This document shows, piece by piece, positions 7,023-62,000 of a DNA stretch of 64,000 bases (position 1 is its first letter; each line of letters opens with the position of its first letter). Location of the stretch: the IMG/VR virus record IMGVR_UViG_3300036856_000037, one strand, 5' to 3'. The position numbers and the translations under genes were made by a program. The notes beneath the pieces were generated by a model. The model was given only the letters and a program-made list of their open reading frames with translations, was not told the DNA's origin and ran no database searches. The stretch is from a virus (lineage: Duplodnaviria > Heunggongvirae > Uroviricota > Caudoviricetes).

Positions 7023-7808
7023 CTAGGGCCTGCATGGCAATGGTCGGACATGGCCATTCCAGGCGTCCAACATATCCACGCAGAACTGTACTGAGCGGTG
7101 CGCCGGCCGCTTCGGGGTGATCTCGTCGATGTAATGCCGTATGGCTTCTCTGCCATCAAAACCGACGTCAATCCCCCAGACGGTGAATGCCGCCCACTTT
7201 CGTCCACACGGCGGACACTTTCCGCACGGACGGTCTCCGACAGGCTCATAGCAGGAGAAGGTCCGCTCTGCCATCTCCTGACCGTCTACTCCTCTGCGCA
7301 GACATTCCCCCACCAGGCTCGCCTTGGTCATGTGGTAGATGGGGAGCGTCAGGCGCACATGGCGACCCTCGGGCAACCACCGCTGGGGCGCGAACATGTA
7401 GTCGCAGAGAAGGTTGAAGCGCATGGTGAAGCGCCGGTCTTTGTCGTTGCCGGTGGAGCTGTCGACCGATCCCATCTGGATCACGTCGCCGTAGTTGGCC
7501 GCAACGAGAGCCAGGATGGCGTTGCGCCCGGGAATGACTTTGCTGTCGGGGAGCTCATACGCGCCTAGCTGGCGTAAGTCGGCCACCTGTAGCCGATTTT
7601 CCCAGCCTGGTGGCGTCTGTAAGCGACGAAACTCCGCGTCCCCGTACCGACCCGCAATTTTGCAGTACAACAGCACGTCAGAGCCACACAGGACGGCCAT
7701 GCCGTAGCTGTCGACACCGCCGCTGTAGAGCGCAACGGAAGTCATGAGGCCCCCGACGACGAGACACCATATGCCCTCAGCCGTAGTTTTGTCGCCGGGG
7801 TACCGCAC
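7023..7808 (-). CDS. queC: 7-cyano-7-deazaguanine (preQ0) synthase QueC
   Basis: PP-loop SGGVDS, VIPGRNAILALVAANYG block, C-terminal CGKCPPCGRK zinc motif. Confidence 0.8.
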   Translation of the reverse strand: MRYPGDKTTAEGIWCLVVGGLMTSVALYSGGVDSYGMAVLCGSDVLLYCKIAGRYGDAEFRRLQTPPGWENRLQVADLRQLGAYELPDSKVIPGRNAILALVAANYGDVIQMGSVDSSTGNDKDRRFTMRFNLLCDYMFAPQRWLPEGRHVRLTLPIYHMTKASLVGECLRRGVDGQEMAERTFSCYEPVGDRPCGKCPPCGRKWAAFTVWGIDVGFDGREAIRHYIDEITPKRPAHRSVQFCVDMLDAWNGHVRPLPCRP

Positions 7809-7854: not shown

Positions 7855-8481
7855 TCATCGTGCCCACATTTGGATGACCGCGCCGTCCCGGTCCCGGTGC
7901 AGTGAGCATTTATTGGTCAATCCTGACGTACGCAACCGCTCAGTAAGACCCTCTGCCTGGTCGGGCCGCTGGTGTACATGGACCTCGACAAGCAGTTTGC
8001 GCACCCCACTCAGCGCGGCGGGCGTCAGGACGTCAAACTCCCCGCCCTCAATGTCCAGGGCGAAGCAGTCAAAGCCCCAGCCTTGCAGACTGGCCAGGGA
8101 GTAGCCGGGACACTGCGCGCCGCTGACTCCCTCGGCGACAGTGGTCTCGGCCCAGTTGTCATGTGGCTTCACCACACAGTTCTGGCCGTCTGTGGTGATG
8201 GCGCCCCACACGCAGGTCAGCGGAATGCCGTTGACCGCCACATTCGACTCCACCAACTCGGCCAGCGTCTTAAGAGGTTCGATGCCGCGGACGTTCTGTG
8301 GACCCACTTGCTCCGCGATACATGCCATCAGCCATCCGGTACCGCCGCCCGCGACCACCACCTTGTCACCGGCGGTGAAGAGTTGACCTGCGGCATCCAT
8401 TTCGAGTTGCTCATATGTGCCGGTGACCTGCCGGTTTGCCAGAAGCACGTACGGGATGTCGACACCGTGGAACGAAATCAT
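7855..8481 (-). CDS. FkbM-family SAM-dependent methyltransferase
   Basis: GGGTGW nucleotide-binding loop and FALDIEGGEFDVL FkbM signature. Confidence 0.6.
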   Translation of the reverse strand: MISFHGVDIPYVLLANRQVTGTYEQLEMDAAGQLFTAGDKVVVAGGGTGWLMACIAEQVGPQNVRGIEPLKTLAELVESNVAVNGIPLTCVWGAITTDGQNCVVKPHDNWAETTVAEGVSGAQCPGYSLASLQGWGFDCFALDIEGGEFDVLTPAALSGVRKLLVEVHVHQRPDQAEGLTERLRTSGLTNKCSLHRDRDGAVIQMWAR

Positions 8482-36280: not shown

Positions 36281-36511
36281 ATGGACCTCAATGACCTCAT
36301 CGGGTGCTGCGGCACCCTCACGCTCGCCACTCGCGGGCCAGCGGGGTTTGGTGAGATTACGGTGAAAGCACACGGATGCCGGATGGCCTACCTGGCGTGG
36401 TCAGCCGAGCCGATTGCCCGAGGGGAGCAGGTCGTCGTCATTGGCATACGCGGCATAGGCACCGTGATGGTGGAGCCGTGGGACTTTGGGGCAAGGGCCC
36501 CAGAGGGGTAA
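36281..36511 (+). CDS. NfeD-like OB-fold protein (short form)
   Basis: 76 aa, beta-rich GEITVKAHG...GEQVVVIGIRGIGTVMVEP; immediately upstream of flotillin gene. Confidence 0.5.
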   Translation: MDLNDLIGCCGTLTLATRGPAGFGEITVKAHGCRMAYLAWSAEPIARGEQVVVIGIRGIGTVMVEPWDFGARAPEG

Positions 36512-36525
36512 CGAAGGAGAAGTTC

Positions 36526-37857
36526 ATGTTTGGTTATCGCGTACCACGCCCTGATGAGGCGATGCTCATCTCCGGCGCCAAGTCCAAGGCGAAGGAGGAC
36601 TTGTCGGCGGGACCACCCTTCCAGGTGGTCGTCGGACACGGCAAGTGGGTCCTCCCACTCTTCCGCAAGGTGGAGTTTCTGACCCTGCAGATGCATGAGG
36701 CGGAAGTCATCGAGAACTGCGTCAGCCGCCAGGGGATACCGCTCAAGGTCAATGCGGTCATCGCGTTCAAGGTGGCCAACGACACCGAGAGCATCTGTGC
36801 TGCCGCGCAACGCTTCCTGGTCCAGGAGGACCAGATGCAGACGCTGACGGGTCGCATCTTTGCCGGCCACCTGCGAAGCATCGTGGGCTCCATGACGGTG
36901 GAGGAGATTGTCCAGGATCGCCAGAAGCTGGCGACGGAGGTGGTGGACGGCAGCAAGGAGGAGATGGCGCGCATCGGCCTGACGGTGGATGCGTTGCAGA
37001 TCCAATCCATCGAGGACCCCACGGGGTACATCCAAGCGATGGCCAAGCCCAACATCGCCGCCGTCCAACAGCGCGCCAATGTTGCCCAGGCACAAGCCGA
37101 CCAGGCCAGTGCTGAGGCCCAGCAGCAGTCGTTGCGCAAGCAGGCGGAGTTCGCGCGCGAAACCGCCGTCCAGCAATCCCAGTATCAGGCGGAGATGGAC
37201 AAGGCCCAGCAGGTGGCAGCCCAGGCGGGTCCGTTGGCCGCCGCGGAGTCTGAGCAGGCGGTGTTGGAGAAGCAACGCCAGACCGCAGAACGTCGCGCCG
37301 AGCTGACCAAGGCCAACCTGTTGTCCAGTGTGGTGGAGCCACAGAAGGCGGAAGCCGAGAAGGTACAGATCATCGCCAGTGCCGAGGCTGAGAGGGCCAA
37401 GATCGAGGCGCGCGCCGCCGCCGACATCGCGACCATCAATGCCAACGCGGCCAAGATGGCGGCCCAGGCCAACGCGGATGCCACCCGCGCGGCCAAGCAG
37501 GCTGAGGCAGACGGCATCAGGGCGGTCAAGACGGCTGAAGCCGAGGGCCTGAAAGCGGCGGCAGAGGCGGCAGCCGCTGAGGGCAAGGTGTCGCTGGACC
37601 AATTGCTCATCCAGACACTGCCCGAGGCCATTCGCGCGGCCTCTCAGGGCTTGGCAGGGTCGAAGATCACCATGCTGGGTGGTGGCGATGAATACACCAA
37701 GCTGGTTGCCGGGTTGGTCCAGCAAGGCGCAGGCATCTTCCAATCCCTGCGCGGTGCGCTCAATGACTCCACCAACGGCAGGCAGACTGATGACCTGAGT
37801 GAGAAAATGTGGCAACTACGCACGGAAGCAGACCCTATTGGCGATTCGAGACGGTGA
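36526..37857 (+). CDS. flotillin-like SPFH-domain protein
   Basis: MFGYRVPRPDEAMLISG start, SPFH core, very long Ala/Gln/Glu-rich coiled-coil (EA repeats). Confidence 0.7.
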   Translation: MFGYRVPRPDEAMLISGAKSKAKEDLSAGPPFQVVVGHGKWVLPLFRKVEFLTLQMHEAEVIENCVSRQGIPLKVNAVIAFKVANDTESICAAAQRFLVQEDQMQTLTGRIFAGHLRSIVGSMTVEEIVQDRQKLATEVVDGSKEEMARIGLTVDALQIQSIEDPTGYIQAMAKPNIAAVQQRANVAQAQADQASAEAQQQSLRKQAEFARETAVQQSQYQAEMDKAQQVAAQAGPLAAAESEQAVLEKQRQTAERRAELTKANLLSSVVEPQKAEAEKVQIIASAEAERAKIEARAAADIATINANAAKMAAQANADATRAAKQAEADGIRAVKTAEAEGLKAAAEAAAAEGKVSLDQLLIQTLPEAIRAASQGLAGSKITMLGGGDEYTKLVAGLVQQGAGIFQSLRGALNDSTNGRQTDDLSEKMWQLRTEADPIGDSRR

Positions 37858-39635: not shown

Positions 39636-40337
39636 TTGTCCGACTGGTACGACCCCTTCCCTGACCGATACAAGCCCAAGCCGTGGCAGCGAGAGTCCAC
39701 CGGCCACCCGGCGGAATCGCTGGACAATCCTTACTGGAAAGCCCTAGAGGACAAAGTGGAAATCGGCGGCCTGAGCCTGTGTCGTGCCCCCACCGTGGGG
39801 GAGTGGCGACGTGGCATCGAGTGGGACGACCTCCCGGCGCGCCATGAGTTCACCAAGAAGTACAGCTGGACCATCACCGACCCCGACTCCATCGCATTCG
39901 TTGCGCACTACGCCGGTAGCCGGGTGGTCGACCCGATGGCCGGGACGGGCTACTGGGCCTACCTGCTGACCCAACTGGGCATTGACGTCGTCTGCTATGA
40001 CCGCGCGCCCGGTGGCAATGACTGGCACGGTGATGCACCGCTTCATGCCGAGATTATGGCCATGGAGGGCAGAGAGTCCGTCAAGCGGCACAAGCAGCGC
40101 ACGTTGCTGTTGTCCTGGCCGCCCTACAGCAACCCCTCCGGCAACCACATTCTGCGGGCCTACCGGGGGCATCGCGTCATCTACATCGGAGAGTCTGAGG
40201 GTGGGTGCTGCGGCGACGACTGGTTCCACCGCCGGTTGGACAAGCACTGGGTAGAGGTCGATGAGCACATTCCTGTCCAGTGGTTCGGCCTGCATGACCG
40301 CATCATCATTTATGACCGGAGGACACATGGACGATGA
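39636..40337 (+). CDS. Rossmann-fold methyltransferase-like protein (VVDPMAGTGYWAY motif I)
   Basis: 233-aa ORF. Confidence 0.45.
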   Translation: MSDWYDPFPDRYKPKPWQRESTGHPAESLDNPYWKALEDKVEIGGLSLCRAPTVGEWRRGIEWDDLPARHEFTKKYSWTITDPDSIAFVAHYAGSRVVDPMAGTGYWAYLLTQLGIDVVCYDRAPGGNDWHGDAPLHAEIMAMEGRESVKRHKQRTLLLSWPPYSNPSGNHILRAYRGHRVIYIGESEGGCCGDDWFHRRLDKHWVEVDEHIPVQWFGLHDRIIIYDRRTHGR

Positions 40338-40990: not shown

Positions 40991-41650
40991 TCACAGCCGA
41001 AAAAGCGCAAGCTCATGTCCATCCTTCAGAACCCCGAACGGACCCGGCGGCTCCCTGACGGCGTCCAATTTCGCTGAGAGCGAAAACGGCGGCGCCTCGA
41101 GGTTCACCGGGCGTTCCATGTAGCCCACCCAGGCGCCGGCATTCGGGTCATAGGTGAAGTCGTTGTCCACCTCAGGCCAGTGGCTGGCCAGCAGGTAGGT
41201 GCTGCCGCTGAGTTTGAAGTTGTCCAGCACCAGGTGGATGTAGTCGTTGGGGAAGTGAATGAGAATCTGGCGCGCCAGGATGAGGTCCACCTTGGGGACG
41301 CGCACCTGGTTGAGCAGGTTGTTGCACGCCCAGGTGTGTTGTGGCCACTTCTTGGCGTTCTCCTGCACCATCCGTGGCTCCACGTCCCACCCGGTATAGG
41401 AGACGCCAGTCAGGTCGACGTGCTGCATCCAATTGAAGTCCCCGCAGGCGGCGTCCAGCATGGACGTGATCTCATACTTGGCGAAGATGCCGGGGAGCCA
41501 GGCGCGCAGGTCTGTGGTCGCCTCTACGGTGCACCCGGGGCCGTTGGCCGTCTCTGGGTTGGTCAGCGGAGAGCAGGAGAACAACTCGCGTATCTCACTC
41601 CAGGCGTTGGCCTGGTCGCTGATGAACTGTGGGCTGGTCAGGTAGTTCAT
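40991..41650 (-). CDS. class I SAM-methyltransferase-like protein (paralogue of 21372..22046)
   Basis: LDAACGDFNWM, KVDLILARQILIHFPNDY, GSTYLLASHWP. Confidence 0.5.
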   Translation of the reverse strand: MNYLTSPQFISDQANAWSEIRELFSCSPLTNPETANGPGCTVEATTDLRAWLPGIFAKYEITSMLDAACGDFNWMQHVDLTGVSYTGWDVEPRMVQENAKKWPQHTWACNNLLNQVRVPKVDLILARQILIHFPNDYIHLVLDNFKLSGSTYLLASHWPEVDNDFTYDPNAGAWVGYMERPVNLEAPPFSLSAKLDAVREPPGPFGVLKDGHELALFRL

Positions 41651-42204
41651 GACGTCTCCATAATCGCGTCGTACTGCGCTCTAATCCACTTGACGTCACC
41701 CATGGCGGTGTGGCGTTCAAAATTCTTGGGTTCAACCCCGATGGCCCGGGACAGGTCATCAGACTTCCACGGCGGTTGCATCAACTCACCCTTGGCCGCC
41801 AGGTAACCGACGATCAGATTCTCCACATCAACGAGGTGGTAATGCCAGGCCGGTGGTTTGATGCCGTTCCGGTACAGCAACCGGGCCAGGCGTTCGGTGT
41901 CAAAATTGGGCACCGCGCCGACGACGTGGGCACCCTGGGTGGCCTCATCAATGATGTCTGCCGCCTGCTTTTTGCTGACGATGTCCCCGGGGGCCGCGTG
42001 CCGGTATCGCTTGAGGTAGTCCACCTTGAACTCATCGGGCAACCATTTTAGGTGCGGCCAGGGCCTGTGTTCGATGAAACAGTGGTACTTCTTTTCAGAA
42101 AATCCCTTGCCGTGGTAACTGCGCCGGATGGCGGCGAACTCCCAGACGGGAGAGTTGGACTCAATGCCCAGCGTCTCTGTGTCCACAAAGACCAGGTCGC
42201 TCAT
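41647..42204 (-). CDS. DEDDh 3'-5' exonuclease (DnaQ/oligoribonuclease-like)
   Basis: LVFVDTETLGI exo I motif and HTAMGDVKW exo III motif. Confidence 0.6.
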   Translation of the reverse strand: MSDLVFVDTETLGIESNSPVWEFAAIRRSYHGKGFSEKKYHCFIEHRPWPHLKWLPDEFKVDYLKRYRHAAPGDIVSKKQAADIIDEATQGAHVVGAVPNFDTERLARLLYRNGIKPPAWHYHLVDVENLIVGYLAAKGELMQPPWKSDDLSRAIGVEPKNFERHTAMGDVKWIRAQYDAIMETS

Positions 42205-42482
42205 ACTCCCATCTTCCTTTCCAGCCACTCCCGCCAATTCGTGGGCGGCTTGCGCGGCGGGACGATGTCGAAGTCCAGCCACCGCACGGTGGTGGAGCCG
42301 TTGTGGCCGTGGATGGCGATGATGTCGTCAACGCTGTGGTAGACGGCGGTGGACTTGAGGTCACACGTCCAGCGGATGGCCGCCGTCCCGTCACTGAATT
42401 GCACCCCCTCAGCAACCGTCCCCAGGCCCGAGATGCCACTGACGTCATGGGTGCGATCAAGCGTGAATCTTTTCATCACCAT
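42201..42482 (-). CDS. hypothetical protein
   Basis: start at M17 of ORF 42201..42530. Confidence 0.4.
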   Translation of the reverse strand: MVMKRFTLDRTHDVSGISGLGTVAEGVQFSDGTAAIRWTCDLKSTAVYHSVDDIIAIHGHNGSTTVRWLDFDIVPPRKPPTNWREWLERKMGV

Positions 42483-42657
42483 TTCCGTTTCCGTGTGGAC
42501 GCCAGCGCGCGGCGTAGGCCGCCGCTTCACCAGGCTCGATCATCCACACACGACCGAATTTTGTCGCCGTTATAGCACCGCTGCTGCACGCCGCCTGGAC
42601 GGTGCGCAAGGGGATGCCGTATCGCTGTGCCACGTCGGGAGAGGAGAGGAAATTCAT
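42457..42657 (-). CDS. small HTH (MerR/excisionase-like) DNA-binding protein
   Basis: VAQRYGIPLRTVQAACSSGAI. Confidence 0.4.
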   Translation of the reverse strand: MNFLSSPDVAQRYGIPLRTVQAACSSGAITATKFGRVWMIEPGEAAAYAARWRPHGNGNGDEKIHA

Positions 42658-43298
42658 GGCGACCGCATGGTGTGCAGGTGATGGATGAGGGATACATCCT
42701 GCTCGCTCAGAATGCCCCGCACCGCCGTGGTGGTGGTGAGGCTGGCGGGACTGCGACAGCCTCGTAAGCGCATACAATCATGCGTCGCGGTAATGATGGC
42801 GATACACCCCAGCGGGTTGAGGACATTGACGATGCCGTCAACGACCTGCTGACCTATCCTCTCCTGGACCTGCAGCCGCGCGCTGTACCCGTACACCAGC
42901 CGGGTCAGTTTACTTAGCCCTACAATGCGCTGGGCTGGCGCAGGACGGTACGCAACGGTGGCGTGGCCACCAAACGGCAGCAGGTGGTGAGCGCAGATGC
43001 TTTGGACGTCGATGCCGCCTTGGATAATCAAGCCGGGGTCAGGCGGCGCGGGGAACGTCGTCAGCAGGTGGTCCTCAGGTATCTCCCGGTACCCCCACAG
43101 CATGTCCTCATACGCGCGCGCCACCCGCTCAGGCGTGGCCGCCGTGTGCTCACCCTCATCAATGTTCAGCGCATTGAGGAGCGCCTTGATGGCGCGGGTT
43201 GCGCCCTCTCTGTCCACCCCCAGCATTTCGCGCTCCGGGATGACGGAGTATGTCGGGTGCTCCACCCGAACTAGTGGTACGTGTTCGTCGTCTGTCAC
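42654..43298 (-). CDS. folE: GTP cyclohydrolase I
   Basis: ERVARAYEDMLWGY, QSICAHHLLPFGG, RIVGLSKLTRLV, ITATHDCMRLRG. Confidence 0.8.
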   Translation of the reverse strand: MTDDEHVPLVRVEHPTYSVIPEREMLGVDREGATRAIKALLNALNIDEGEHTAATPERVARAYEDMLWGYREIPEDHLLTTFPAPPDPGLIIQGGIDVQSICAHHLLPFGGHATVAYRPAPAQRIVGLSKLTRLVYGYSARLQVQERIGQQVVDGIVNVLNPLGCIAIITATHDCMRLRGCRSPASLTTTTAVRGILSEQDVSLIHHLHTMRSP

Positions 43299-43996
43299 TA
43301 CGTCCCTCGCTTGTCTCCGAACGCCAGGATTTGAAGCCTCTGCGTGATGTTGACCCGCTGGGCGATGGCCTCCTCAGCAATCTTGGGGAAGCGCGCCAGC
43401 AGTACCGCCGCGTCCGTCCCCTCCGGCATCACCCAGACGTGGTCCCGGGGCCACCCAGCCTTGTCCGCGTACTCCACCGCGCGCGCGACATCCTTGGCGT
43501 CCTCCACGACGAATTTGAGGATGGCGCGCTTGCCATACCCCACCCTGACGGGCCATGCGGCCATCGCGGGGTTTTGACCCTTCTTGTGTTCGCCGGCATT
43601 GTCCAGCTTCGGCGACACCGAGTAGTGCCCGACGTAGAACTGGGTCGCATTGTTCGGCAGGATCGTCCCGTTGGTCTCCACCGCCAGGTGGATGCGGCGA
43701 CGGTAGAGCATTTCCAGCAACTCAGCCCAGACGCGGTTGCCTTGGTGCATCAACGGCTCACCGCCGGTGATGACGACATCCTGGGTGTCCTTGGGGATCA
43801 GCGCCGCGACCTCCTTGGCCGTCATCGGCGTGAATTCCTTCTTCAGGTCATACCGGTTGGCGTCCCAGGTGTAGGGCGTGTCGCACCAGCTACAGGCGAG
43901 GTTGCAGCCACCGGTACGAATGAAGGTGCACAGCCGACCGGCGCGCGGACCCTCACCTTGAAAGGAGTGGAAAACCTCTGAGATAGGAATAGTCAT
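43298..43996 (-). CDS. queE: 7-carboxy-7-deazaguanine synthase QueE (radical SAM)
   Basis: GCNLACSWCDT cluster motif, ITGGEPL. Confidence 0.75.
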   Translation of the reverse strand: MTIPISEVFHSFQGEGPRAGRLCTFIRTGGCNLACSWCDTPYTWDANRYDLKKEFTPMTAKEVAALIPKDTQDVVITGGEPLMHQGNRVWAELLEMLYRRRIHLAVETNGTILPNNATQFYVGHYSVSPKLDNAGEHKKGQNPAMAAWPVRVGYGKRAILKFVVEDAKDVARAVEYADKAGWPRDHVWVMPEGTDAAVLLARFPKIAEEAIAQRVNITQRLQILAFGDKRGT

Positions 43997-44523
43997 GTCG
44001 TTATGCCGCTTCCGATGGGATGGATGAAGGGGATGGTGGAGATGTTGACCGGCTCAGGCTCCCACGTCGCGCTGTTCTCCGGCCCCTCATCGAGGATGAG
44101 TTTAAGGAGCCGCGCGTGGGGATACAGCGGCTCCTGGGCACCGACGCTGGTCCCCCACTCGCTGTAGGGCTTGTGTAGGCGCTCGATGGACCGCGCGGCA
44201 AGCTCTGCCGCAATGGCCTCCGTGGTCGGCGGACCATCCAGCGGGTAGTGCTTAAGCATGTTGGCCGCCAGGTAGACGCAGAAGTCGTCGGCCTTGTCGT
44301 GAATGAAGCCGTGGTCGAAGTCGCGCTTGATCAGCTCCCGTAGCGCCGCCTTGAGTGTCCCAAACTCCAAATCGCTGTCTTGGGCAAAGACCCAGGTGAC
44401 ATGGAAGGTATGGCCGTGGATATTCCTACACTTCTCCCCTGGCCCTGATAGGCCGAGAATCCGGTGGCCTGCGGCGAAGTGTGCCTTGACGCTGATGGTG
44501 CTCACCGCTTCACCTCTGCCCAC
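43993..44523 (-). CDS. queD: 6-carboxy-5,6,7,8-tetrahydropterin synthase QueD
   Basis: FAAGHRI ... CRNIHGHTFHV. Confidence 0.75.
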   Translation of the reverse strand: MGRGEAVSTISVKAHFAAGHRILGLSGPGEKCRNIHGHTFHVTWVFAQDSDLEFGTLKAALRELIKRDFDHGFIHDKADDFCVYLAANMLKHYPLDGPPTTEAIAAELAARSIERLHKPYSEWGTSVGAQEPLYPHARLLKLILDEGPENSATWEPEPVNISTIPFIHPIGSGITT

Positions 44524-44843
44524 TGCCGGTCAAACTCGTCGGCGTCGGCCAGGCGGGGCGGGCGGTCGTAGATGAGCACCTGGCGCGATGCCTCGCAGCC
44601 CGTTTCCTTGTCAATATTGGGGACTTCCATCGTCAGCTCAAAGCCTTGGGGCATCTTGGTGGTGCCCTCATGTGAGATGGTCAACTTAGTCACTCGAAAA
44701 CCGTTTTCATGCGACCGGGTGAGCACCGACTGATAGCCGTATTCACCGAAGTAGCGGGCTATCTCTTCGATACTGTCGTAGCCCACCAGGACAGCTGCGC
44801 ATCGCGCGGGACGCTCGTCGTATTCCGTGAAGAGGTCGCTCAT
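44502..44843 (-). CDS. hypothetical protein
   Basis: 113-aa ORF. Confidence 0.4.
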   Translation of the reverse strand: MSDLFTEYDERPARCAAVLVGYDSIEEIARYFGEYGYQSVLTRSHENGFRVTKLTISHEGTTKMPQGFELTMEVPNIDKETGCEASRQVLIYDRPPRLADADEFDRQWAEVKR

Positions 44844-45895
44844 ACTTTTCCTTCCGTCGACGGGTCGCCGTAGTCGCCCGCTTTCAATTCCTTCCCTGCC
44901 GCCAGGTCGGCGACCAGCTTCATATGCGGAGAGAAGCCGTCCACCAGGTGCAGGTGTGGGCCGTAGAATTCCTCAAACACCTTGCGCTCCCGGATGCCGG
45001 CGCCACACCCACTCATCGCCAGGTGCTGGACCGGCCCGTCCCCCAGGCTCCAGCCCTTGAGGCGGCCCCACTGCGGTGGTGTCACCGGCTTGTTGCGGAA
45101 GGTCTTGCGCCACTGCTCCTCCTGCACGGAGGCGGACAGCGCGGACAGGCGGACCAGCAGCACGCGGTTCTTAGGTCCCGACTTGGCGATTTCACTAGGC
45201 AGGACGCCGTAGTAGTCCTTGAGTAGTTGCGCCACCCGGGGCTTGTAGACGCCCTTGCCACCGTCCAGGTCGACGCCGATGCTTTCCCCCGTGACGGGGT
45301 CACGCAGCATGATGCGCCCATAGCGGTATGCCTGGCCCCAGCCCGAGGAGTCGACGGAGAAGAACGGCAACCGCATCCAATCCCGGTGCGTCATCCCCCA
45401 GCCGTGGAAGCGCATCTGCGGGTGGTTGTCCCGGGCGTATTTGAAGACACTGACCAGCCAGCGGAACGTCGCACTGGGCGGCCACGGTTGTCCCGCGACA
45501 CCGCCCAGCCCGAGAAAGTCCACGCCTTGCTCGGCATACCAGTCCATCGTCTCTGGCGGGTCACCCGCGTGGATGGTGGAGACGCCCGGGATGCCCAGGT
45601 CGCACATCCGTTGCCAGTTGCGCTTGGTCTGCTCAATAGACGGCACATCGAGTGCCGCGACCCAGGACAGCAGGTGTTCCCACTTATTCACCCAGGCGAC
45701 CAACTGCGTGGTGCTGATCGTCTTACCCAGCGTCCTGGCCGAGAAGGCGCCACTATCCGCGACGATGTTGCATGACGAGAACTTCTCGATGTCGATCCGC
45801 TTGTAATACCAGTACGACAGCAGGATGTTGCGCGGCGGCGGGATTCGCCCAGCGCCCTGGAGACGCAACTCGCTCACACGTCCTCCACAATCCAC
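44840..45895 (-). CDS. dpdA: DpdA-like DNA-guanine transglycosylase (TGT superfamily)
   Basis: ILLSYWYY ... [11 protein letters not shown]-like substrate pocket motif; 351 aa. Confidence 0.6.
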
Positions 45896-46272
45896 TGCCG
45901 CGCCACTTCACACAGCGCAACGAACACCGCGTCCTTGCTCTGCTCTCGCCAACCCAGGTCGTTGAACGGCACCATGTCGGGGTGCGTCTTTGCCGTCACG
46001 TCACGCTGCGGGCCGTACGTCCAGCCCATCTTCTTATAGGCGTCCCACCAGTCGTTGTGCAGTTCCTCAGGGTCAGCCTTGCGGTCAGGACCCATCATCA
46101 TGGAGATGACATTGAGGAACTGATCCTGGAAGGCGTAGTCGCGGTGTGACCAGGGTTCAGGTACCACGGGCGCATCCACCGCGGCGGCCTGTAGCCGCGC
46201 GACCTCATAGATGAAGATGGCTTGGCGTTCCAGGAGTGAGCCGGTGGGCCACTCGATGTCCTTGTGCGTCAC
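45874..46272 (-). CDS. hypothetical protein
   Basis: 132-aa ORF. Confidence 0.45.
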
Positions 46273-46871
46273 GCCTCTGCGCTCTCGACGTCCTTACTCT
46301 TTTCCAGCAGGCTGGCGAAGGCCGCGGTGTCGTCGGCGTAGAGCTTGCGGATACGCTCCCAGCGGGTGGCCAGCCCTGGGTCGACCAACAGCGTCAGGCG
46401 ACGGTAGAAGTCCTCGGCCTTGGCCTCGCTCTCCTTGGCCTCTTCCTCAAGTTCGTCCAGGTCGGGTGCCCCTTGGATCGCTTCTTCCAGCATCTTCAGG
46501 TACTCGACGTCAAAACCCGTTCCCTCCAGGTCGCCGTCCAGCTCCTCCAAGTTCTCCAGCAACAAGTCGAGGTTGGGACCCAGGCCCAGGTCGGCCAATC
46601 GATTGTCGGCTAACATGATCTTCCTAGCCGTCTTGTCGTCGGTCTCGATGATGTCGACCCGCACGGTGGCCATGCCAATCTGCTTGGCCGCCTCCACCAA
46701 GTGGTGGCCGGCGAGGATCGTCCCGTCTGGCCGCCCGACAATACTGCGGAACTGGCCGAACTGTTCTAATGAACGCGCAAGGTCGTCCACGGAGCCACGA
46801 TTTGGATTATCCGGGTGGGCCTGGAGACTGTCGGTCTTGACTTCCTTCTGTCCGATGAACTTAACCGTCAC
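46269..46871 (-). CDS. ParB-like nuclease-domain protein (DpdB-like candidate)
   Basis: [25 protein letters not shown] ... [15 protein letters not shown]arB N-domain; acidic C-terminus. Confidence 0.55.
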
Positions 46872-56065: not shown

Positions 56066-59000
56066 CTACGACACCGGAATCAGGATGCCGCTGATGCCAC
56101 CCCAGTAGTCGGCAGCACCGGTGGAGGCAGTGAAACTGAGTCCGCTTGCCCCGCTAGCATCCCCGACGACCATCGGCATACTGCTCGTGACACTCTGATT
56201 CCACCGCTGCGTTTGGTTGAACGAGCTGAAAGCGTGGTTGGCGCCGCCGAATCCCGCCACCACCATCTGGCCGGTGGAGGCACTGATGCCCGACAGGGTC
56301 GGCGTCCCGGTGTCGCCGCTGTTGTACGTGCAGTTTCCGATGGACCCGACATTGAGGTAGCTGACGGTGTTGGCCGCGATGCAGTCGATGGTTCCGCCAC
56401 CACTGGGCGTGATGGTCAGTGACACGGTTTGGGAGCCGCTGGGGGCGCCGATCAGCGCCACCGCGAAGGTCCAGTAGACCGTGCCACTGTGGTTGTAATA
56501 CTCAACCTGGTCCAGCAGGAGGGGGAAGTTGTAGGTCCCGTAGCTGTACGTCGCGTCTGCGGAGCCTTCATAAAACTGGACGGTGGCCCACAGCACCACG
56601 CAGCACGCGGGGCCGCCATCAGAGCTGTGCGTCCATGACACGGTTTCGGTGCCCGCCGTCGCCTCCTCTATACCCGACCCGGTGGCCTCATACGTCACCG
56701 TCAGCTCACTGCCGCCACCGCCGCCCAGTCCGCCCAGCGCGGTGGTTGTTGAGGCGTTTTGCCGTGAGGTGATCCATGCACTCCCCTGCGCACCACCGGC
56801 CGAGTTGACTTTGGAGTCTCCACCCGAACTTCCGCCGCCCGGGGCATTACCCGGCAGGTGGGTGGCGGTGGTTGAGGCGCCCGCGACATACAGGTTGTTA
56901 TTGAACGTCGTGTTGGTCTGGCCCAATCCTTCCGCCGACGTGTTGGTGTTCGCCGGGTTGTAATAAGCACTCCCACCGGGTCCGCCACCCTGGCCGCCAG
57001 TGGTTTGGGCCAAGACGTTTTGAATTGACGGATTGAGGACGACGGAGATGCCGCCCCAGCTGTCCGACAGGTTGTTGGTCGCGCCAATGGTGGCGCTGGC
57101 GCTGGCGTCCGTGATGGACAGACCGGAGTAGTAGTTGGCACCCGAGAGGTAATAGCCGTACCAGCGGTTCGTGCCGCCACTGAAGGCGGCCTGCTGCGCC
57201 TTGACAGAGCCCAGGAACTGCACCATGTACTGGTTGGCAGCACACATGGTGGATTGCGACAGTGCTGTGCCCGTCCCGTAGGTGTTGGCCACCAGCGCCA
57301 CCGACGACACGTTGTTGTACGAAATGGAGTTGGCCGAGGCATACGCCTTGCTCGCGGTACCTATCCCGATGGCCTGGACGCCACCGGGTACATCAGCCAG
57401 TCCGAATACGATGGTCGCGCCGTTGGCCCCGGCGTTGCCGTTATACACCAGACCCAGCGGGATCATCGGCACGCCGCCGTAGGTGACGTTGTAGGTTCCG
57501 AAGCCGGTGTTGATGCCCACCAGGATGTAGGCGCCCGCGGTAGCCGTGTGGTTCCACGTCATCCCGGTGCCATACATGTTGGCGCCTGCGCCCAGCGCGT
57601 CAAAGCTCGGCTGGGTCACCGTCCCGTAGCCCACCAGGGTGTCGGTGCCCGACCCCGAGGGTGCACAGCCCCCGCTACCCACGATGACCGTCAGCTCCGT
57701 CACGCTGGTGGGGAAATCGGTGCCATAGGTATAGGTGTTCTTCTGCCACACGCCGCAGTTGCCGCCCTGGCCGTTGTTGAACGCCGAGGAGGTGCCATCT
57801 CCCCACCCACCCGCGCCGCCACCGGGGAGGAGCACGGAGTCGACGTAGTCACCGGACAACAGCCAGGTTGGCAGGGTCAGCGAGAAGATGCCCGCCGCGT
57901 TGAATACCGTCTGGCTCGGTGGCTGGTAGGCCGCGGGGAGCGCGGACACACTGACACACGCAAAGGGGCACGTGCCGCCATAGGAGAGCTGGGAAGCCGT
58001 CAGGGTCGTCGGCGACACCCCGCCGGTGCTCGACGTCGACCGGCTGGCCCCCACGTTGGGTGGGATGCTGTTGGGGTTGTTGGGGATGGCCAGGGTCTCG
58101 GCCACCACGCTGATCGTGCTGGACTGCGCCACGATTTCCACCGCGATGAGCGTGCCGACTACAAGAGTCGGCTGATCAGCCGTGGTGATGGTGACACCCA
58201 CCCAGCCCCAGGAACCGTTGGCGATAGAGCCGGAGATGTCGGTGGAGGCCCATAGGAGGGTCTGCGTCGCCGTGGTGGTGTCAATGGAGTAGAGGTTGAC
58301 ATAAACGCCGGAGCCCCCGGCGCCCTTGGCCATGAACTCAACAAAGCCCACGTCGGTGACTTGAGAACTGTTGATGAATCCCATCAACGTGGTGCCACTG
58401 GAGATGCTGATGCTGGGCAGTGTCGACCCGGTAAAAGCAGAGAGCGGGAAGGTGACCTGACCCGAAGGTTGCAGCCCACTCCACACCGGCTGATTGGACA
58501 CGTTGGTGATTACCTGGTTGTTTGCCACACCAATCTCCAATGCGGTGGCCGCGCTGGTGGCCGTGACGCCCACCGACTGCAGCATCTGCGCCAACTGGAC
58601 GCCGGTGACGTTCGTCTGGCTGGACGCTGAGGCTAGTTGGTCGATGAGGTTCTGCCAGGCCGTCGCCAGGTCGGCTTCACCCTGTGGTCCCGCGACCGCC
58701 ACCGAAGACAACTGCGGAATGTTGGTCACGTCCAGCAGGGCGGCGTCAATCAATGTGGTGGGCGCGAACAGCGCACTGGTGAACCACACGTCGCCGGTGG
58801 CCGCCGCCGCCGGTTCCACGGTGAAGACCAGGCACGCGGTGGCCGCACTAACCGGCATGACAAAGGAGGCGGATACCGGATACCAGCCCCAGTTGCTCGT
58901 CGGCTCAGGGTCCGTGATGGTCGTCTGGGTGGCCGTCACGGTGGCAATCAAATTCCCGCTGGAGTCGTAGGCATTGACCCCTACGGAGATGAGCTCACCT

Positions 59001-62000
59001 TCAGCAAAGATGTTGTTCCACATGATGCTGGCGCCCGCCTGGACCACCTGGCCCGGCTGGACGGCAGTGCGCTGACCTGCTTCAAACTGCAGAAGCTGGC
59101 CGTCCAGCGGCGGACCCTGGATCGGTGTTCCGTCAGGGTGCACGCCGCCGGCGAAGCTGTTGATGTAGTCCAGGCCGATCTGGACATACGACCGGGCATC
59201 CCCATCATCAATGTTGGGCTGGCCGTAGAAGTAGGCGTACTGCGAGCTTGCGCTCTCAAAGTTCTCCGCATAGTAGTTTTCCAGCGCCAGCGCCGTCTTG
59301 ATCTGTGTCGCGCCAGCGGTGTTCGCCTTCTCTGCCGCCGTCGCCACCGTGCCCAGGTTCCCCAGGTACGTCTTGTACACCGCGTCGTAGAGGACGCGGA
59401 ACCACTGGCCTTGCACGCCGCCACCCAACGAGATGTCAGCGGCATTGCCCGAGGACCCGGGGGAGTAGGACGCATTGGTCGGGCCGACTGAGCCGGGGAG
59501 GAGATAGTTGGCCAGGTTGTACCAGTGCAGGCTCAGCGCGTTGAGGATATAGGGCGCGCCGGTGGTCTGGAAGTTCTCTGCCACCGCGATGGTCGTCTGG
59601 GTGACCGGCTCATACATCACACAGCAGTCGTTGCCGGGTTCAGACCCATCATTGCCGAACCAGGCCGAGTCATTGAACCAGCCCAAGCCCCATTGCTGGT
59701 AGACCGAGCCTGCCCCACCCGGCCCGGACCACTGGGTGGCCATGTTGGTCGGCGTACCGGGCTCAGTAAAGACCGTCATACGCTCCTGCTGGACGTCAGC
59801 ACTGAACAGCGCGCCTTGTCCCGACTGCGTCCCGAAGCTGACCAGGTCACCGATGGTGCCCTGCATGTTGCCCGCGGTGAAGAAGTAGTCGACATTGATC
59901 TTGGTAAACGTCTGGGTGCCGCTGGTGATACCGAGGTAGTCCAGGATCATCAGCTCATACGTCGTACACGCGGGAGACGGGAGTGCCGACACGCCGCTGA
60001 GCATCGACGTGTTGGTCAGCCCCATCGGCGTGCAGACGTTGTCGGCCATCAGCACGGCAGCCGTCTTGCTGTAGAGGGTTTGCAGGATGAATCCCAGCAG
60101 GATGAAGTTGGACTCCGTGTAGTACCACACGGTGCCAGGTGGCGCATTCGCCGTACCGGCCTCAATCACCGACAGCTGGCTCGCGGGCGTGATGGCCGTG
60201 ATGGTGGGGTCGATGAGGAACTGCAGCGCGACAAGCTCATCCTGCTCAGTGTCATAGACACCGGAGGTTTGCATCAGCATCTCGCGGATGGTGATGGTTG
60301 AGGCGTTGGCCACGCTCGGGTACCAGGTGTCCAAGGTGTCATCAAGTGTCAGCAGGCCATCACTGACGGCCTTGAGGATGGCGTTGGCGACAAACCCCTT
60401 GGAGACCGAGCCGAATCGGAAGTGGTCGTTGACCGCGAACCCGGTGCCATAGGACTGGTAGTAATAGCCCATCGGACCAGAGATTCCGATGACGGTGCCG
60501 GTAACGTTGGCTACCTGCGCGGCGTTCGACACCATGATCTCGTCGATGATCGCGGTGTACTCCTCAGCCATCGGCTGGCCGTACTGCGGGTTCAGCATCC
60601 AATTCGTCTGCTGGCTGGGAACGAATGTCCCGCTCACCGGGCACGACGTCAGGTAGTCGCCGGGAGCGCAGAAGTCCCACCACTTGGACTCGGTGTCAAT
60701 GAGGTTGCCGGTGGCCGGGGTGGTGGTGTTGCCCGCGCTGGTGTACGGCCCGATGGCCGCCGGGACCTCCACCACACAGCCTGAGGTGTTGGCCGGGGGA
60801 TTAAAGCCGGGCCACGCATGACCCTCCTCGCGGCGCATGTTGCCGAACATGACACCGGCCAGCAGGTCGTTGGCCCTGCCGGTCAACGTGCCATAGCGAA
60901 TCAGGTCGTACACGCCGTCACAGATGAGCGACCCCTGGCCGGCGCCCACCAGGATGAACGGACCCGGGATGGTGTTGATGGCGTTGGTCAGCCACGTAAT
61001 GCCCTGCGCGACACTTTGGGAGGGCACCACGTTGGAGGGATAGGGGACAAAGATCGTCTCGAAGTAGCTCTCGTCCAGCCCGCTGTACATGTAGCCCATG
61101 CCCAGGTAGGACTGCGCGGAGTTGCTGAGGTACTGCAGCAGGCCGGATTCGAACGCCGGGGTGAAGACACCACCGGGTGTACCCGGCACCACGTAGACGG
61201 TGATGAGCCCGCGCCGCACCGTGCGGATCGACCCTCCGGTGCCGTTGTTGATCCACCCGTCCCACACCCAGAGCCCCTGGCCTTGGATGCCCGCGCCGGT
61301 GGCGAAGTTGGGGTCCTTGAGGATGTTGGTGACCGCGCCGGGCGCCAGCGACTTGAGCAGGTCGGCGCTGACCTGGGTGGTGTTGTTCAAGCTCCCCAGC
61401 AACGTCGCCAAGGTTTCCCCCGTGGTGGAGGTGCCACCACCCCCGTTGCCGGGCGTGGTGCCGGTCCCCAGTCCGCCGGGGTTACCCAGCAGATTGAGGA
61501 TGTCTTTGATCCACGTCTCAATCGTGCCCAGCGGGTTGGTGATCAGTCCCACGATGTCCGTCAGCGCGCCGGCGATGGCCTGCTCGATTTTGCCCGGCAG
61601 TCCCTCGATCAGGCTGAACAACTCTGACAACGGGTTGCCGGTCCCCGAGCCACCCAGCGCGTCAACGATGGTGTCGAGGATGTCCTGACCGAGTCCCAGC
61701 ACGCCCTCCAGGACGCTCTTGAGCACCGACAGGGTGTTGCCGATGATGTTGTTACCCGTCAGCGCATTGACGATGGTGTCGATGATGTTCTGAATGATGC
61801 CGAAGATGGCGCCACCCAGGCCACCGCCTGCTCCCGCGGAGTTGGTGCCGTTAAGCGGCTCTAACCCGAAGAACTCCAAGATGGCGTTGATGAAGTCCAG
61901 CGGCAACTCCATGATGTCGATGATCATCTGCGCCAGGTTGAGCGACTTCTGGCCGACGACGTCCTCAATGCCCTGGTCAAGCTCATTGAGCGGGTTCTTG

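What the first reader, a model, noticed from the sequence alone, without database searches (positions are those of the whole stretch)
42654..46871. 7-deazaguanine DNA-modification module (folE-queE-queD-dpdA plus a ParB-like gene), with queC and an FkbM methyltransferase displaced 35 kb away
Leftward genes encode GTP cyclohydrolase I, QueE (radical SAM GCNLACSWCDT) and QueD (CxxxHGH). The 351-aa TGT-superfamily protein has the VADSGAFS motif typical of DNA-guanine transglycosylase DpdA. The 200-aa ParB N-domain protein parallels DpdB of bacterial dpd clusters.

QueC (7023-7808) is separate and sits next to an FkbM-family methyltransferase (7855-8481). Together these predict preQ0-type or related 7-deazaguanine bases in the phage DNA as an anti-restriction modification. 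The adjacent methyltransferase and the ParB-like partner raise the possibility of a further-derivatised base.
Basis: partly seen in the sequence, partly recalled or inferred. Interest (0 to 1): 0.65.

Follow-up and report, generated by a model that had tools for sequence, protein, structure and literature searches.

The report
Phage 7-deazaguanine DNA-modification genes plus methyltransferase
An uncultivated mycobacteriophage-like virus carries a complete gene set for replacing guanine in its DNA with a 7-deazaguanine base, which is a known anti-restriction trick, plus a rare methyltransferase found only beside such gene sets that may make a methylated base not yet described.

Summary
On the minus strand, 42654-46871 encodes FolE, QueE, QueD, a DpdA-type DNA-guanine transglycosylase and a ParB-like protein. 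A QueC (7023-7808) and an FkbM-like methyltransferase (7855-8481) lie 35 kb away.

The QueC is divergent, but a 60% identical copy sits in the QueC position of a ParB-DpdA-QueC-QueD-QueE-FolE prophage cluster in Nocardia. A related 114-kb phage contig also has a cluster without QueC. The core is therefore a new member of a known system, and the ParB/DpdB analogy has already been published.

The new point is the methyltransferase. Its subfamily is rare and absent from 50,697 isolated phage records. All six members whose neighbourhood I could read have a QueC within about 5 kb. These fall into four divergent lineages with different gene orders. More distant FkbM relatives have no que genes nearby.

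No QueF, amidotransferase or DpdM was found in the window. I predict dPreQ0-type DNA, possibly with an undescribed methylated derivative. The chemistry is untested.

The parts
46269..46871 (-). ParB-like N-domain protein (200 aa, pI 4.5), probable accessory partner of DpdA
   Evidence: Pfam ParB_N gives E 3e-4, below the cutoff, but phrog_8071, 620 and 723 give E 1e-29 to 4e-31. A homologue lies immediately upstream of dpdA in L001 (Godines), L002 (Finch), L004 (Nocardia prophage) and L009, and next to the DpdA-like gene in L019. The six proteins align as one family with invariant G55 and H57 in the motif 'AG[HNE]H'.
45874..46272 (-). RyR-domain protein (132 aa), an inserted passenger gene and probably not part of the pathway
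   Evidence: Pfam RyR E 1e-8. It is absent from the otherwise collinear cluster of L009. Homologues occur in 218 phage records, and none of the rows shown has que genes under the match; the best are Mycobacterium phages DyoEdafos and Aegeus at 66% identity.
44840..45895 (-). DpdA, the DNA-guanine transglycosylase (ORF 351 aa; JGI aa, starting at 45877)
44502..44843 (-). Orphan 113-aa protein in the position that queC occupies in Rosebush-type clusters
   Evidence: No Pfam, PHROG, NCBIfam or PADLOC match and no tblastn match in 50,697 phage records. It is absent from L009. Its codon-position GC (GC3 0.75) resembles that of neighbouring genes.
43993..44523 (-). QueD (6-carboxytetrahydropterin synthase)
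   Evidence: Pfam PTPS E 3e-14, phrog_2389 E 1.5e-22, and the CxxxHGH motif.
43298..43996 (-). QueE (7-carboxy-7-deazaguanine synthase, radical SAM)
   Evidence: phrog_2076 E 1e-61. Five NCBIfam QueE models are its best matches, all below their cutoffs. The CxxxCxxC motif is present.
42654..43298 (-). FolE (GTP cyclohydrolase I)
   Evidence: Pfam PF01227 E 1e-46; phrog_2197 E 2e-56.
42457..42657 (-). Small HTH protein (66 aa, excisionase/RDF-like) directly after folE
   Evidence: Translated. phrog_7506 E 7e-6. A homologue, 64% identical over 50 aa, follows folE in L009.
7023..7808 (-). QueC of a divergent subfamily (likely start 7745, 240 aa)
   Evidence: Pfam QueC scores 48 bits against a cutoff of 22. 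The SGGVDS PP-loop and four invariant Cys (C186, C195, C198, C201) are present. A family profile matches solved QueC (2pg3, E 1e-22) better than Cap9 (8e-13) or QatC (4e-9). It is 60% identical to the QueC inside the Nocardia ParB-DpdA-QueC-QueD-QueE-FolE cluster.
7855..8481 (-). FkbM-like class I SAM methyltransferase (208 aa, pI 4.8), a candidate 7-deazaguanine tailoring enzyme
   Evidence: The AF2 model (pLDDT 83) has a Rossmann methyltransferase fold. GxGxG, D-[IV]-E-G-x-E and H168 are invariant in 18 family members, and PF05050 matches 11 of 18 members. Every core member whose context I could read lies beside a QueC or a 7-deazaguanine cluster. There is no match in isolated phages.
46868..47461 (-). 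HNH (+AP2) endonuclease abutting the cluster, probably a mobile element and not part of the pathway
   Evidence: Pfam HNH_3 E 3e-15; phrog_3593 E 7e-47. It did not reach the GC3 > 0.72 filter that its neighbours pass.

Best explanation
This is a phage-encoded system that replaces guanine in the phage's own DNA with a 7-deazaguanine base. FolE, QueD, QueE and QueC convert GTP by way of H2NTP, CPH4 and CDG to preQ0. DpdA, an enzyme with the TGT fold, then exchanges G in double-stranded DNA for that base after replication. It is probably helped by the ParB-like protein encoded just upstream. The modified DNA resists host restriction.

The FkbM-like methyltransferase next to queC belongs to a small subfamily that I found only beside such clusters. 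It most likely methylates a free 7-deazaguanine intermediate (preQ0, ADG or CDG) before DpdA inserts it, or less likely the inserted base. Some or all of the modified positions would then carry a methylated derivative that has not been described.

**Shown here:** gene identities, the DpdA fold, the synteny, and the link between the methyltransferase and que genes.

**Inferred:** the DNA target and the preQ0 product (from Rosebush), the role of the ParB-like protein (from conserved adjacency and from bacterial DpdB), and everything about the methyltransferase's substrate.
For: **Pathway enzymes.** They are identified by Pfam, PHROG and NCBIfam.

**DpdA.**
- It is 49% identical to Rosebushvirus DpdA.
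- Rosebush DNA carries dPreQ0 at about 28% of G and resists several restriction enzymes. Mycobacteria have no queuosine pathway, so the phage has to supply it (PMC6884629).

**Cluster organisation in relatives.**
- The order ParB-DpdA-(QueC)-QueD-QueE-FolE is found in Godines, Finch, a Nocardia prophage and the JGI contig L009.
- The QueC subfamily occupies the QueC position in the Nocardia cluster.
- It keeps the PP-loop and the Zn cysteines.
- It is closest to solved QueC.

**Methyltransferase.**
- Only 4 homologues turned up in a word-indexed search of 5.8 billion proteins. A full HMMER search found 15 cluster representatives at E <= 1e-30.
- Six of six members with readable context have a QueC within about 5 kb:
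  - window: MT then QueC, 109 bp apart;
  - L015: MT and QueC overlap;
  - L014: QueC and MT overlap by 4 nt;
  - L011: MT next to an MT paralogue and two DpdA-like genes, with QueC and QueD;
  - L017: MT, three small genes, then QueC;
  - L019-21: MT abuts QueD-QueE-x-FolE-DpdA-like-ParB-x-QueC-like.
- Across these lineages the methyltransferases are 39-46% identical, while the QueC proteins are 27-32% and the DpdA proteins 23-25% identical.
- FkbM relatives scoring 60 bits or less against the family profile (L022-L026) have no que genes.
- The family is uniformly small and mostly acidic (pI 4.5-5.2 in 12 of 18 members), whereas DpdA has pI 9.2.
- There is a precedent: HuiC, a SAM methyltransferase, O-methylates free preQ0 in huimycin biosynthesis (bioRxiv 10.64898/2026.04.15.718813).
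Against: **No chemistry.** Nothing was measured for this phage or any close relative.

**Weak family matches.**
- The QueC is far below the NCBIfam equivalog cutoff (32 bits against 150). It lacks a loop of about 20 residues that canonical QueC has, so it might stop at ADG or do something else.
- DpdA has no Pfam TGT match and no CxCxxC Zn motif.

**The methyltransferase link is not obligate.** Close homologues of this same QueC occur without the methyltransferase within 10 kb (L004-L008).

**Limits of the sample.**
- The window and L015 are syntenic, and L017 belongs to the same broad phage group, so the number of independent contexts is about four.
- Only 6 of the roughly 15 core representatives could be examined.
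- The methyltransferase fold matches are generic: PrmA, TrmI and PRMT-like.
- Only 64 kb of a 116.7-kb contig is visible, so a QueF or an amidotransferase could lie outside the window.
Confidence: 0.6

Rival explanations
1. The core system is the same, but the methyltransferase has nothing to do with it. The DNA carries plain dPreQ0 as in Rosebush. The methyltransferase acts on an unrelated substrate, for example a host or phage protein, a sugar or a lipid, and sits near queC only through inherited gene order or shared timing of expression.
For: [quoted passage not shown]
- Homologues of this QueC work in clusters or loci without the methyltransferase (L004-L008).
- Characterised FkbM-family enzymes mostly O-methylate sugars and polyketide hydroxyls (my own knowledge of the family).
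- The fold search gives no nucleobase-specific match.
- The window has at least three other methyltransferase genes with no evident link to the pathway.
Against: - The link holds in four divergent lineages with five different arrangements. It survives replacement of the QueC clade: L017 has the window-type backbone but an L011-type QueC.
- It includes overlapping reading frames with queC in two loci.
- The subfamily was not seen in any other context.
- The nearest FkbM relatives outside the subfamily lack que genes.
Confidence: 0.28
2. The divergent QueC does not make the nitrile. It stops at the amide (ADG), like the QueC* proposed for Campylobacter phage CP220, or it forms another amide. DpdA would then insert ADG or CDG, and the DNA would carry dADG or dCDG, possibly N- or O-methylated by the methyltransferase.
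For: - The QueC is only about 25% identical to Rosebush-type QueC in the multiple alignment, and pairwise BLASTP finds only short matches.
- It misses the NCBIfam equivalog cutoff.
- It lacks a loop and the 'YPDC' segment of canonical QueC.
- QueC homologues that make amides are known: QueC* (PMC10516641) and RoyL-type amide synthetases.
- DpdA2 can insert CDG and preQ1 as well as preQ0 (PMC10516641).
Against: - The PP-loop and all four Zn cysteines are kept.
- The family profile is closest to solved QueC enzymes.
- The subfamily takes the place of canonical QueC in an otherwise Rosebush-like cluster.
- No feature that distinguishes an amide-stopping QueC from a nitrile-forming one is established, so this could not be tested.
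Confidence: 0.1
3. The TGT-like and QueC-like proteins do not target DNA. They modify tRNA as classical TGT does, or attach a deazaguanine to a protein as the Cap9/Cap10 pair of type IV CBASS does.
Against: - The best structural match is the DNA insertase DpdA.
- The closest sequence relatives are phage DpdA proteins of a genus whose DNA modification has been measured.
- Mycobacteria have no queuosine in tRNA (PMC6884629).
- No tRNA gene is called in the window.
- The profile dominated by this QueC subfamily scores solved QueC far above Cap9 and QatC.
- No CD-NTase or Qat partner was seen in the Pfam scans.
Confidence: 0.02

Closest known systems
dPreQ0 system of Mycobacterium phage Rosebush and other Rosebushvirus / subcluster B2 phages, also CRB2, Quesadilla and Rhodococcus phage Finch
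   Same: - The gene set is the same: ParB-like, DpdA, QueC, QueD, QueE, FolE.
- The order ParB-DpdA...QueD-QueE-FolE is the same.
- DpdA is about 49% identical, FolE 54-55% and QueE 43-51%.
- The hosts are actinobacteria that lack the queuosine pathway.
   Different: - queC is not in the cluster. It lies 35 kb away and belongs to a different QueC subfamily, about 25% identical in the alignment, with no significant full-length pairwise match.
- A RyR-domain gene and an orphan 113-aa gene are inserted into the cluster.
- An FkbM-like methyltransferase accompanies queC.
- The genome is about 117 kb, against 67-72 kb for the mycobacteriophages in this group (Finch is 139 kb), and shares no nucleotide similarity with them.
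Bacterial Dpd modification module DpdA/DpdB/DpdC (Salmonella Montevideo)
   Same: A TGT-fold DNA transglycosylase is encoded next to a ParB-superfamily protein. The DpdA structure 7ui4 is the best structural match. In vitro, DpdB supplies an ATPase activity that preQ0 insertion needs (PMC10164549).
   Different: - The phage ParB-like protein has 200 aa, not about 400.
- It has 'AGHH' where DpdB has DGQQR, and it lacks the SspE-like C-terminal domain.
- There is no DpdC and no DpdD-K restriction genes.
- No PADLOC model matched either protein as a Dpd component: DpdA had no match, and the ParB-like protein matched only the ParB-like N-terminus of a Type II methyltransferase model.
- The phage carries its own preQ0 pathway.
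[quoted passage not shown]
   Same: It is a methyltransferase encoded within a phage 7-deazaguanine cluster, and it diversifies the base (PMC10516641).
   Different: - DpdM is a DUF3109 / YkgJ-like metal-binding protein with an unusual fold. It needs QueF-made preQ1.
- The window protein is a Rossmann-fold FkbM-like enzyme.
- No QueF or DUF3109 gene was found in the window.
HuiC, the SAM-dependent preQ0 O-methyltransferase of huimycin biosynthesis in actinomycetes
   Same: It is a SAM methyltransferase encoded with the FolE/QueD/QueE/QueC core, and it methylates the free preQ0 base.
   Different: HuiC belongs to secondary metabolism, and those clusters have no DpdA. O6-methylation would disturb base pairing, so it is an unlikely product for genomic DNA. 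I had no HuiC sequence to compare, so homology was not tested.

Membership tests
Phage DpdA (DNA-guanine transglycosylase, TGT superfamily) | TGT-type (beta/alpha)8 barrel fold | tested here: met
Phage DpdA (DNA-guanine transglycosylase, TGT superfamily) | Sequence membership in the phage DpdA family that includes experimentally modified phages | tested here: met
   phrog_7068 E 7e-115. It is 48-50% identical over 90-95% of its length to Rosebushvirus DpdA. Rosebush DNA carries dPreQ0 (PMC6884629).
Phage DpdA (DNA-guanine transglycosylase, TGT superfamily) | Conserved acidic residues in the DSG motif and a second Asp | tested here: inconclusive
   D47 (VADSGAFS), D83 and D182 (SVDSSGW) are invariant in 32 homologues. 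I did not check by superposition that they correspond to the catalytic Asp residues of TGT or DpdA.
Phage DpdA (DNA-guanine transglycosylase, TGT superfamily) | Match to the Pfam TGT model, and the CxCxxC...H zinc site of TGT | tested here: not met
   There is no Pfam or NCBIfam match. No PDB match was found by sequence or by profile. No CxCxxC motif is present in the sequence. The known Rosebush-type proteins also have no Pfam domain on record, so this does not separate the window protein from accepted phage DpdA.
Phage DpdA (DNA-guanine transglycosylase, TGT superfamily) | Encoded with preQ0 biosynthesis genes | tested here: met
   It is contiguous with queD, queE and folE. queC is on the same contig.
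Phage DpdA (DNA-guanine transglycosylase, TGT superfamily) | Exchanges G for a 7-deazaguanine in DNA | not testable with these tools
   This needs LC-MS of DNA or an enzyme assay.
QueC (7-cyano-7-deazaguanine synthase) | Pfam PF06508 above the gathering score | tested here: met
   48 bits against 22, but only residues 88-209 align.
QueC (7-cyano-7-deazaguanine synthase) | PP-loop SGGxDS and four zinc cysteines | tested here: met
   S29, G30, G31, D33, S34 and C186, C195, C198, C201 are invariant in 23 sequences that include canonical phage QueC.
QueC (7-cyano-7-deazaguanine synthase) | NCBIfam equivalog TIGR00364 cutoff | tested here: not met
   32.1 bits against 150.3. A loop of about 20 residues and the YPDC segment of canonical QueC are missing.
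QueC (7-cyano-7-deazaguanine synthase) | Takes the QueC position in a complete pathway cluster | tested here: met
   A 60% identical homologue lies between dpdA and queD in a Nocardia prophage. The family profile is closest to solved QueC: 2pg3 E 1e-22 and 3bl5 E 5e-18, against Cap9 8e-13 and QatC 4e-9.
QueC (7-cyano-7-deazaguanine synthase) | Converts CDG to the nitrile preQ0 | not testable with these tools
   This needs complementation or an enzyme assay.
DpdB (ParB-like ATPase partner of bacterial DpdA) | ParB-fold N-terminal domain, encoded next to dpdA | tested here: met
   PHROG ParB families give E about 1e-30. It is adjacent to dpdA or a DpdA-like gene in six elements.
DpdB (ParB-like ATPase partner of bacterial DpdA) | DGQQR NTPase motif and an SspE-like helical C-terminal domain (about 400 aa) | tested here: not met
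   The motif position reads LAGHHLVEA. The protein has 200 aa with a short acidic tail. DpdB's features are taken from PMC10164549. No PADLOC model matched it as DpdB; the only match was the ParB-like N-terminus of a Type II methyltransferase model.
DpdB (ParB-like ATPase partner of bacterial DpdA) | NTP hydrolysis required for base insertion | not testable with these tools
   This needs biochemistry.
FkbM-family methyltransferase (PF05050 / TIGR01444) | Model match above the curated cutoff | tested here: not met
   For the window protein, PF05050 gives 18.3 bits against 22.7 and TIGR01444 gives 23.3 against 37.7. At family level 11 of 18 members match PF05050 at E <= 0.01, the best at 2e-7.
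FkbM-family methyltransferase (PF05050 / TIGR01444) | Class I Rossmann fold with GxGxG, and the D-[IV]-E-G-x-E motif | tested here: met
   The AF2 model has pLDDT 83.2, and its Foldseek matches are all SAM methyltransferases. G45, G47, G49 and D143, E145, G146, E148 are invariant. That this motif is typical of FkbM proteins is from my own knowledge.
DpdM (dPreQ1 methyltransferase) | DUF3109 fold with CxxxCxxCC, and co-occurrence with QueF | tested here: not met
   The window methyltransferase has a Rossmann fold. No QueF or DUF3109 match was found in Pfam scans of the window's ORFs.

The most novel reading that the evidence does not exclude
The FkbM-like methyltransferase subfamily is a dedicated tailoring enzyme of phage 7-deazaguanine pathways. 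It would give a methylated 7-deazaguanine in DNA, for example methyl-dPreQ0, N-methyl-dADG or the methyl ester of dCDG, that is not among the eight natural derivatives known. The route would be independent of QueF and DpdM.
Probability: 0.4. Interest if true: 0.75.

Novelty: new variant of a known kind. Interest (0 to 1): 0.55.

Why it matters
The core system is a well-known way for phages to escape restriction, and it adds little by itself. The value lies in a concrete, testable lead.

A small methyltransferase family, absent from every isolated phage I could search, accompanies 7-deazaguanine clusters in several unrelated phage lineages. If it methylates the base, it adds a new natural DNA modification and a new enzyme for making it. 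That is of interest for phage-host conflict, for restriction- and Cas-resistant DNA, and for enzymatic DNA labelling.

The data also show that actinophage DpdA is regularly paired with a short ParB-like protein. This pair would be a minimal model for asking why DNA transglycosylation needs a ParB-type partner.

Tried and rejected
- **Close relatives among isolated phages.** Megablast of the cluster and of 12-37 kb found only fragments. The phage has no cultured relative.
- **DpdB orthology of the ParB-like protein.** Rejected on motif and length.
- **The RyR-domain gene and the 113-aa gene as pathway components.** Rejected. Both are absent from the collinear cluster in L009. RyR homologues are widespread in phages, and none of the matches shown has que genes under it.
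- **QueF, Gat, ArcS, DpdC, DpdL, DpdM or DpdN in the window.** None was found in Pfam scans of the ORFs I called as genes, except the two tail proteins at 56066-63525 (PHROGs only) and three short ORFs at 54105-54440, 55676-56056 and 63549-63965. The other 52 kb of the contig was not available, because the exact-sequence look-up of DpdA failed.
- **More methyltransferase contexts.**
  - IMG/VR, GTDB genomes and JGI metagenome scans with the family alignment gave nothing new.
  - The broader alignment was too diverse to scan with.
  - Single-protein scans found only distant FkbM relatives without que genes.
- **Substrate of the methyltransferase.** Structure and profile searches gave only generic SAM-methyltransferase matches.
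- **A promoter or terminator between the methyltransferase gene and queC.** None was predicted, but the scan is weak for actinobacterial signals.

Full report
**1. The observation**

It looks like a large actinobacteriophage:
- tail genes, including one of 2000 aa;
- a RecT and YqaJ recombination pair;
- a PE/PPE pair and a WhiB gene, which point to a mycobacterial host.

It has no close nucleotide relative among 50,697 phage records.

On the minus strand, tightly packed, lie these genes:

| Coordinates | Gene | Main evidence |
|---|---|---|
| 46269-46871 | ParB-like protein | phrog_8071/620/723, E 1e-29 to 4e-31 |
| 45874-46272 | RyR-domain protein | Pfam RyR E 1e-8 |
| 44840-45895 | TGT-like protein with VADSGAFS | phrog_7068 E 7e-115 |
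| 44502-44843 | orphan, 113 aa | no family match |
| 43993-44523 | QueD | CxxxHGH motif |
| 43298-43996 | QueE | CxxxCxxC motif |
| 42654-43298 | FolE | Pfam E 1e-46 |

A 66-aa HTH gene follows folE at 42457-42657. QueC (7023-7808, Pfam 48 bits against a cutoff of 22) and a 208-aa methyltransferase (7855-8481) lie 35 kb to the left.

**2. Is the TGT-like protein a DNA enzyme?**

It has no Pfam, NCBIfam, PADLOC or PDB match by sequence. This is also true of accepted phage DpdA proteins, which have no Pfam domain on record.

It is 48-50% identical over 90-95% of its length to the 'queuine tRNA-ribosyltransferase / DpdA-like' proteins of Rosebushvirus phages, CRB2, Quesadilla and Rhodococcus phage Finch. 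From PMC6884629:
- Rosebush DNA was measured at about 96,500 dPreQ0 per million nucleotides, about 28% of G.
- Rosebush DNA resists several restriction enzymes.
- Mycobacteria have no queuosine genes.

The margin over TGT in structure is small, so the sequence relationship and the gene context carry most of the weight.

**3. The cluster in relatives**

| Element | Gene order |
|---|---|
| Godines (Rosebushvirus), Finch | ParB-DpdA-QueC-QueD-QueE-FolE |
| Nocardia prophage (L004/L005) | the same order, with two small extra genes |
| JGI contig of 113.9 kb (L009) | ParB-DpdA-QueD-QueE-FolE-HTH, no QueC |

In L009, DpdA is 63% and the ParB-like protein 66% identical to the window proteins. That cluster has no RyR gene and no 113-aa gene. 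A cluster without QueC is therefore normal in this phage group, and the two extra genes in the window are insertions. RyR homologues occur in 218 phage records, with no que genes under the matches shown. The 113-aa gene matches no phage record.

**4. The distant QueC**

Against Godines QueC, BLASTP finds only short matches around the PP-loop and the C-terminal cysteine motif. Yet the window QueC is 60% identical to the QueC that sits between dpdA and queD in the Nocardia prophage.
- It keeps SGGxDS and four invariant cysteines.
- A profile of the group matches solved QueC (2pg3, E 1e-22) better than Cap9 (8e-13) or QatC (4e-9).
- Homologues that are 57-70% identical stand alone in three other phage contigs, with no other que gene within 10 kb (L006-L008).

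I take it to be the pathway's QueC. It belongs to a divergent subfamily: it falls below the NCBIfam equivalog cutoff, and a loop of canonical QueC is missing. Whether it makes the nitrile or stops at the amide cannot be told from sequence.

**5. The ParB-like protein**

ParB-like proteins next to dpdA in six elements align as one family. The position of the ParB nucleotide-binding motif reads 'AG[HNE]H', or DGEHR in L019.

Bacterial DpdB is a ParB-fold ATPase needed for preQ0 insertion. It has a DGQQR motif and an SspE-like C-terminal domain, and it forms a dimer of 80-95 kDa (PMC10164549). The window protein is half that size and has neither feature. No PADLOC model matched it as DpdB.

It does resemble the ParB-like N-termini of phage DNA methyltransferases (phrog_498; PADLOC MTase_II). 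The likely role is an accessory that loads or positions DpdA on DNA. This is an analogy with DpdB, not orthology, and it was already suggested for CRB2 ORF1 (PMC6392294).

**6. The methyltransferase**

This is the part that goes beyond what is known.

*Family size and fold*
- The window protein matches the FkbM and PCMT models only below their cutoffs.
- A word-indexed search of 5.8 billion proteins found four homologues.
- A full HMMER search with their alignment found 15 cluster representatives at E <= 1e-30. Below that level the family merges into the broad FkbM family, with 697 representatives at 1e-10.
- Eighteen members share invariant H5, G6, E24, E27, GxGxG, E68, W110, D-x-E-G-x-E and H168.
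- Eleven of the 18 match Pfam FkbM.
- The model is a class I Rossmann methyltransferase. Its nearest structures, PrmA and TrmI, are not informative.

*Gene neighbourhoods.* I could read the context of six members:

| Locus | Arrangement |
|---|---|
| window | MT, then 109 bp, then QueC |
| L015 | MT overlaps QueC |
| L014 | QueC overlaps MT by 4 nt, followed by an MT paralogue; a DpdA-like gene lies 3 kb on |
| L011 | MT, MT paralogue, DpdA-like, three small genes, QueC, then a second DpdA-like gene and QueD |
| L017/L018 | MT, three small genes, QueC |
| L019-L021 | MT transcribed divergently from QueD(HTH fusion)-QueE-x-FolE-DpdA-like-ParB-x-QueC-like |

*Independence of the contexts*
- The window and L015 are syntenic. 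L017 shares backbone genes with the window, but its QueC belongs to the L011/L014 clade (27% identical to the window QueC).
- L011/L014 and L019-21 are distant lineages. Their QueC proteins are 27-32% identical to the window's. The L011/L014 DpdA-like proteins are 23-25% identical to the window DpdA, and the L019 one gave no significant match. The methyltransferases are 39-46% identical.
- That leaves about four independent lineages and five gene arrangements.

*Controls*
- FkbM relatives from IMG/VR that score 60 bits or less against the family profile have no que or dpdA genes nearby. Core members score 228 bits or more.
- tblastn finds no member in any isolated phage. No paper in the library combines 'FkbM' with 'deazaguanine'.

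*Evidence against an obligate link*
- The same QueC subfamily occurs without the methyltransferase (L004-L008).
- I could examine only 6 of about 15 core representatives.

**7. Which base?**

No QueF, glutamine amidotransferase, ArcS or DUF3109 (DpdM) domain turned up in Pfam scans of nearly all the window's ORFs. The two tail proteins at 56066-63525 and three short ORFs near them were not put through Pfam. The default prediction is therefore dPreQ0, as in Rosebush.

If the methyltransferase acts in the pathway, its features favour a free base as substrate over DNA. This is weak evidence.
- The proteins are small and single-domain.
- Most are acidic: pI 4.5-5.2 in 12 of 18 members, against 9.2 for DpdA.
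- HuiC sets a precedent by methylating free preQ0.

Products compatible with base pairing would be an N2-methyl preQ0, an N-methyl carboxamide (from ADG) or a methyl ester (from CDG). I cannot choose between them. DpdM, the one known methyltransferase of these pathways, has a different fold and needs preQ1 (PMC10516641).

**8. Verdict**

The core is a new, rearranged member of the Rosebush-type dPreQ0 system in an uncultivated phage of about 117 kb. That is expected biology and of modest interest. The consistent link between a rare FkbM-like methyltransferase subfamily and 7-deazaguanine clusters is, as far as I could find, unreported. It makes a specific chemical prediction that one LC-MS experiment could test. 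I rate the whole as a new variant of a known kind, interest 0.55.

Noticed in passing
window 9599-11455 (+): A WhiB-like gene (9599-9898), a PE gene (9929-10228) and a PPE gene (10232-11455; Pfam PPE E 1e-58) lie together in a phage contig. PE/PPE pairs are a hallmark of mycobacteria, which suggests the host and possibly a role in host manipulation.
   Followed up: partly
window 18636-20408 (-) and 20898-20959 (-): A Ro60 homologue (TROVE plus Ro60 vWA domains) has, 490 bp upstream on the same strand, an Rfam tRNA-like match (36.9 bits) that ARAGORN does not call as a tRNA. This looks like a YrlA-type Y RNA next to its Ro protein.
   Followed up: partly
window 21318-22046 (+), 40991-41650 (-), 22043-22723 (+), 39636-40337 (+): There are several further SAM-methyltransferase-like genes: two phrog_3382 paralogues, a class I methyltransferase (Methyltransf_25, E 2e-18) and a phrog_19090 protein with a DPxxGxG-like motif. 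The 40991-41650 copy lies in the same leftward gene string as folE, after a DEDDh exonuclease-like gene (41647-42282).
   Followed up: partly
window 45874-46272 (-): A RyR-domain gene is inserted between the ParB-like gene and dpdA. It is 66% identical to genes of Mycobacterium phages DyoEdafos, Aegeus and Baudelaire, and homologues occur in 218 phage records with no que genes under the matches shown.
   Followed up: yes
window 46868-47461 (-) and 23883-24302 (+): An HNH endonuclease with an AP2 domain abuts the ParB-like gene and falls below the GC3 level of its neighbours. A NUMOD4-motif gene lies elsewhere in the window. Both are likely homing-endonuclease-type mobile genes.
   Followed up: no
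window 22817-23821 (+) and 36376-37857 (+): Two SPFH/Band 7 family proteins are encoded by the phage.
   Followed up: no
window 56066-62068 (-): A 2000-aa tail protein combines minor-tail and lysin-like domains (phrog_382, phrog_346, phrog_102).
   Followed up: no
L011 1357-7411; L014 683-5943: A distant phage lineage carries two tandem methyltransferase paralogues. In L011 it also has two DpdA-like paralogues (48% identical to each other), together with QueC and QueD.
   Followed up: partly
L019 374-6596 (also L020, L021): In this 7-deazaguanine cluster QueD is fused to an N-terminal HTH (LexA/GntR-like) domain. An unknown 234-aa gene lies between the ParB-like and QueC-like genes. The QueC-like protein (295 aa) has a long N-terminal extension.
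   Followed up: no
L007 5193-5852 and 11345-14909: In one relative, the gene after queC is a weak Glyco_transf_7C match, and three glycosyltransferase-like genes lie 6-9 kb downstream.
   Followed up: no
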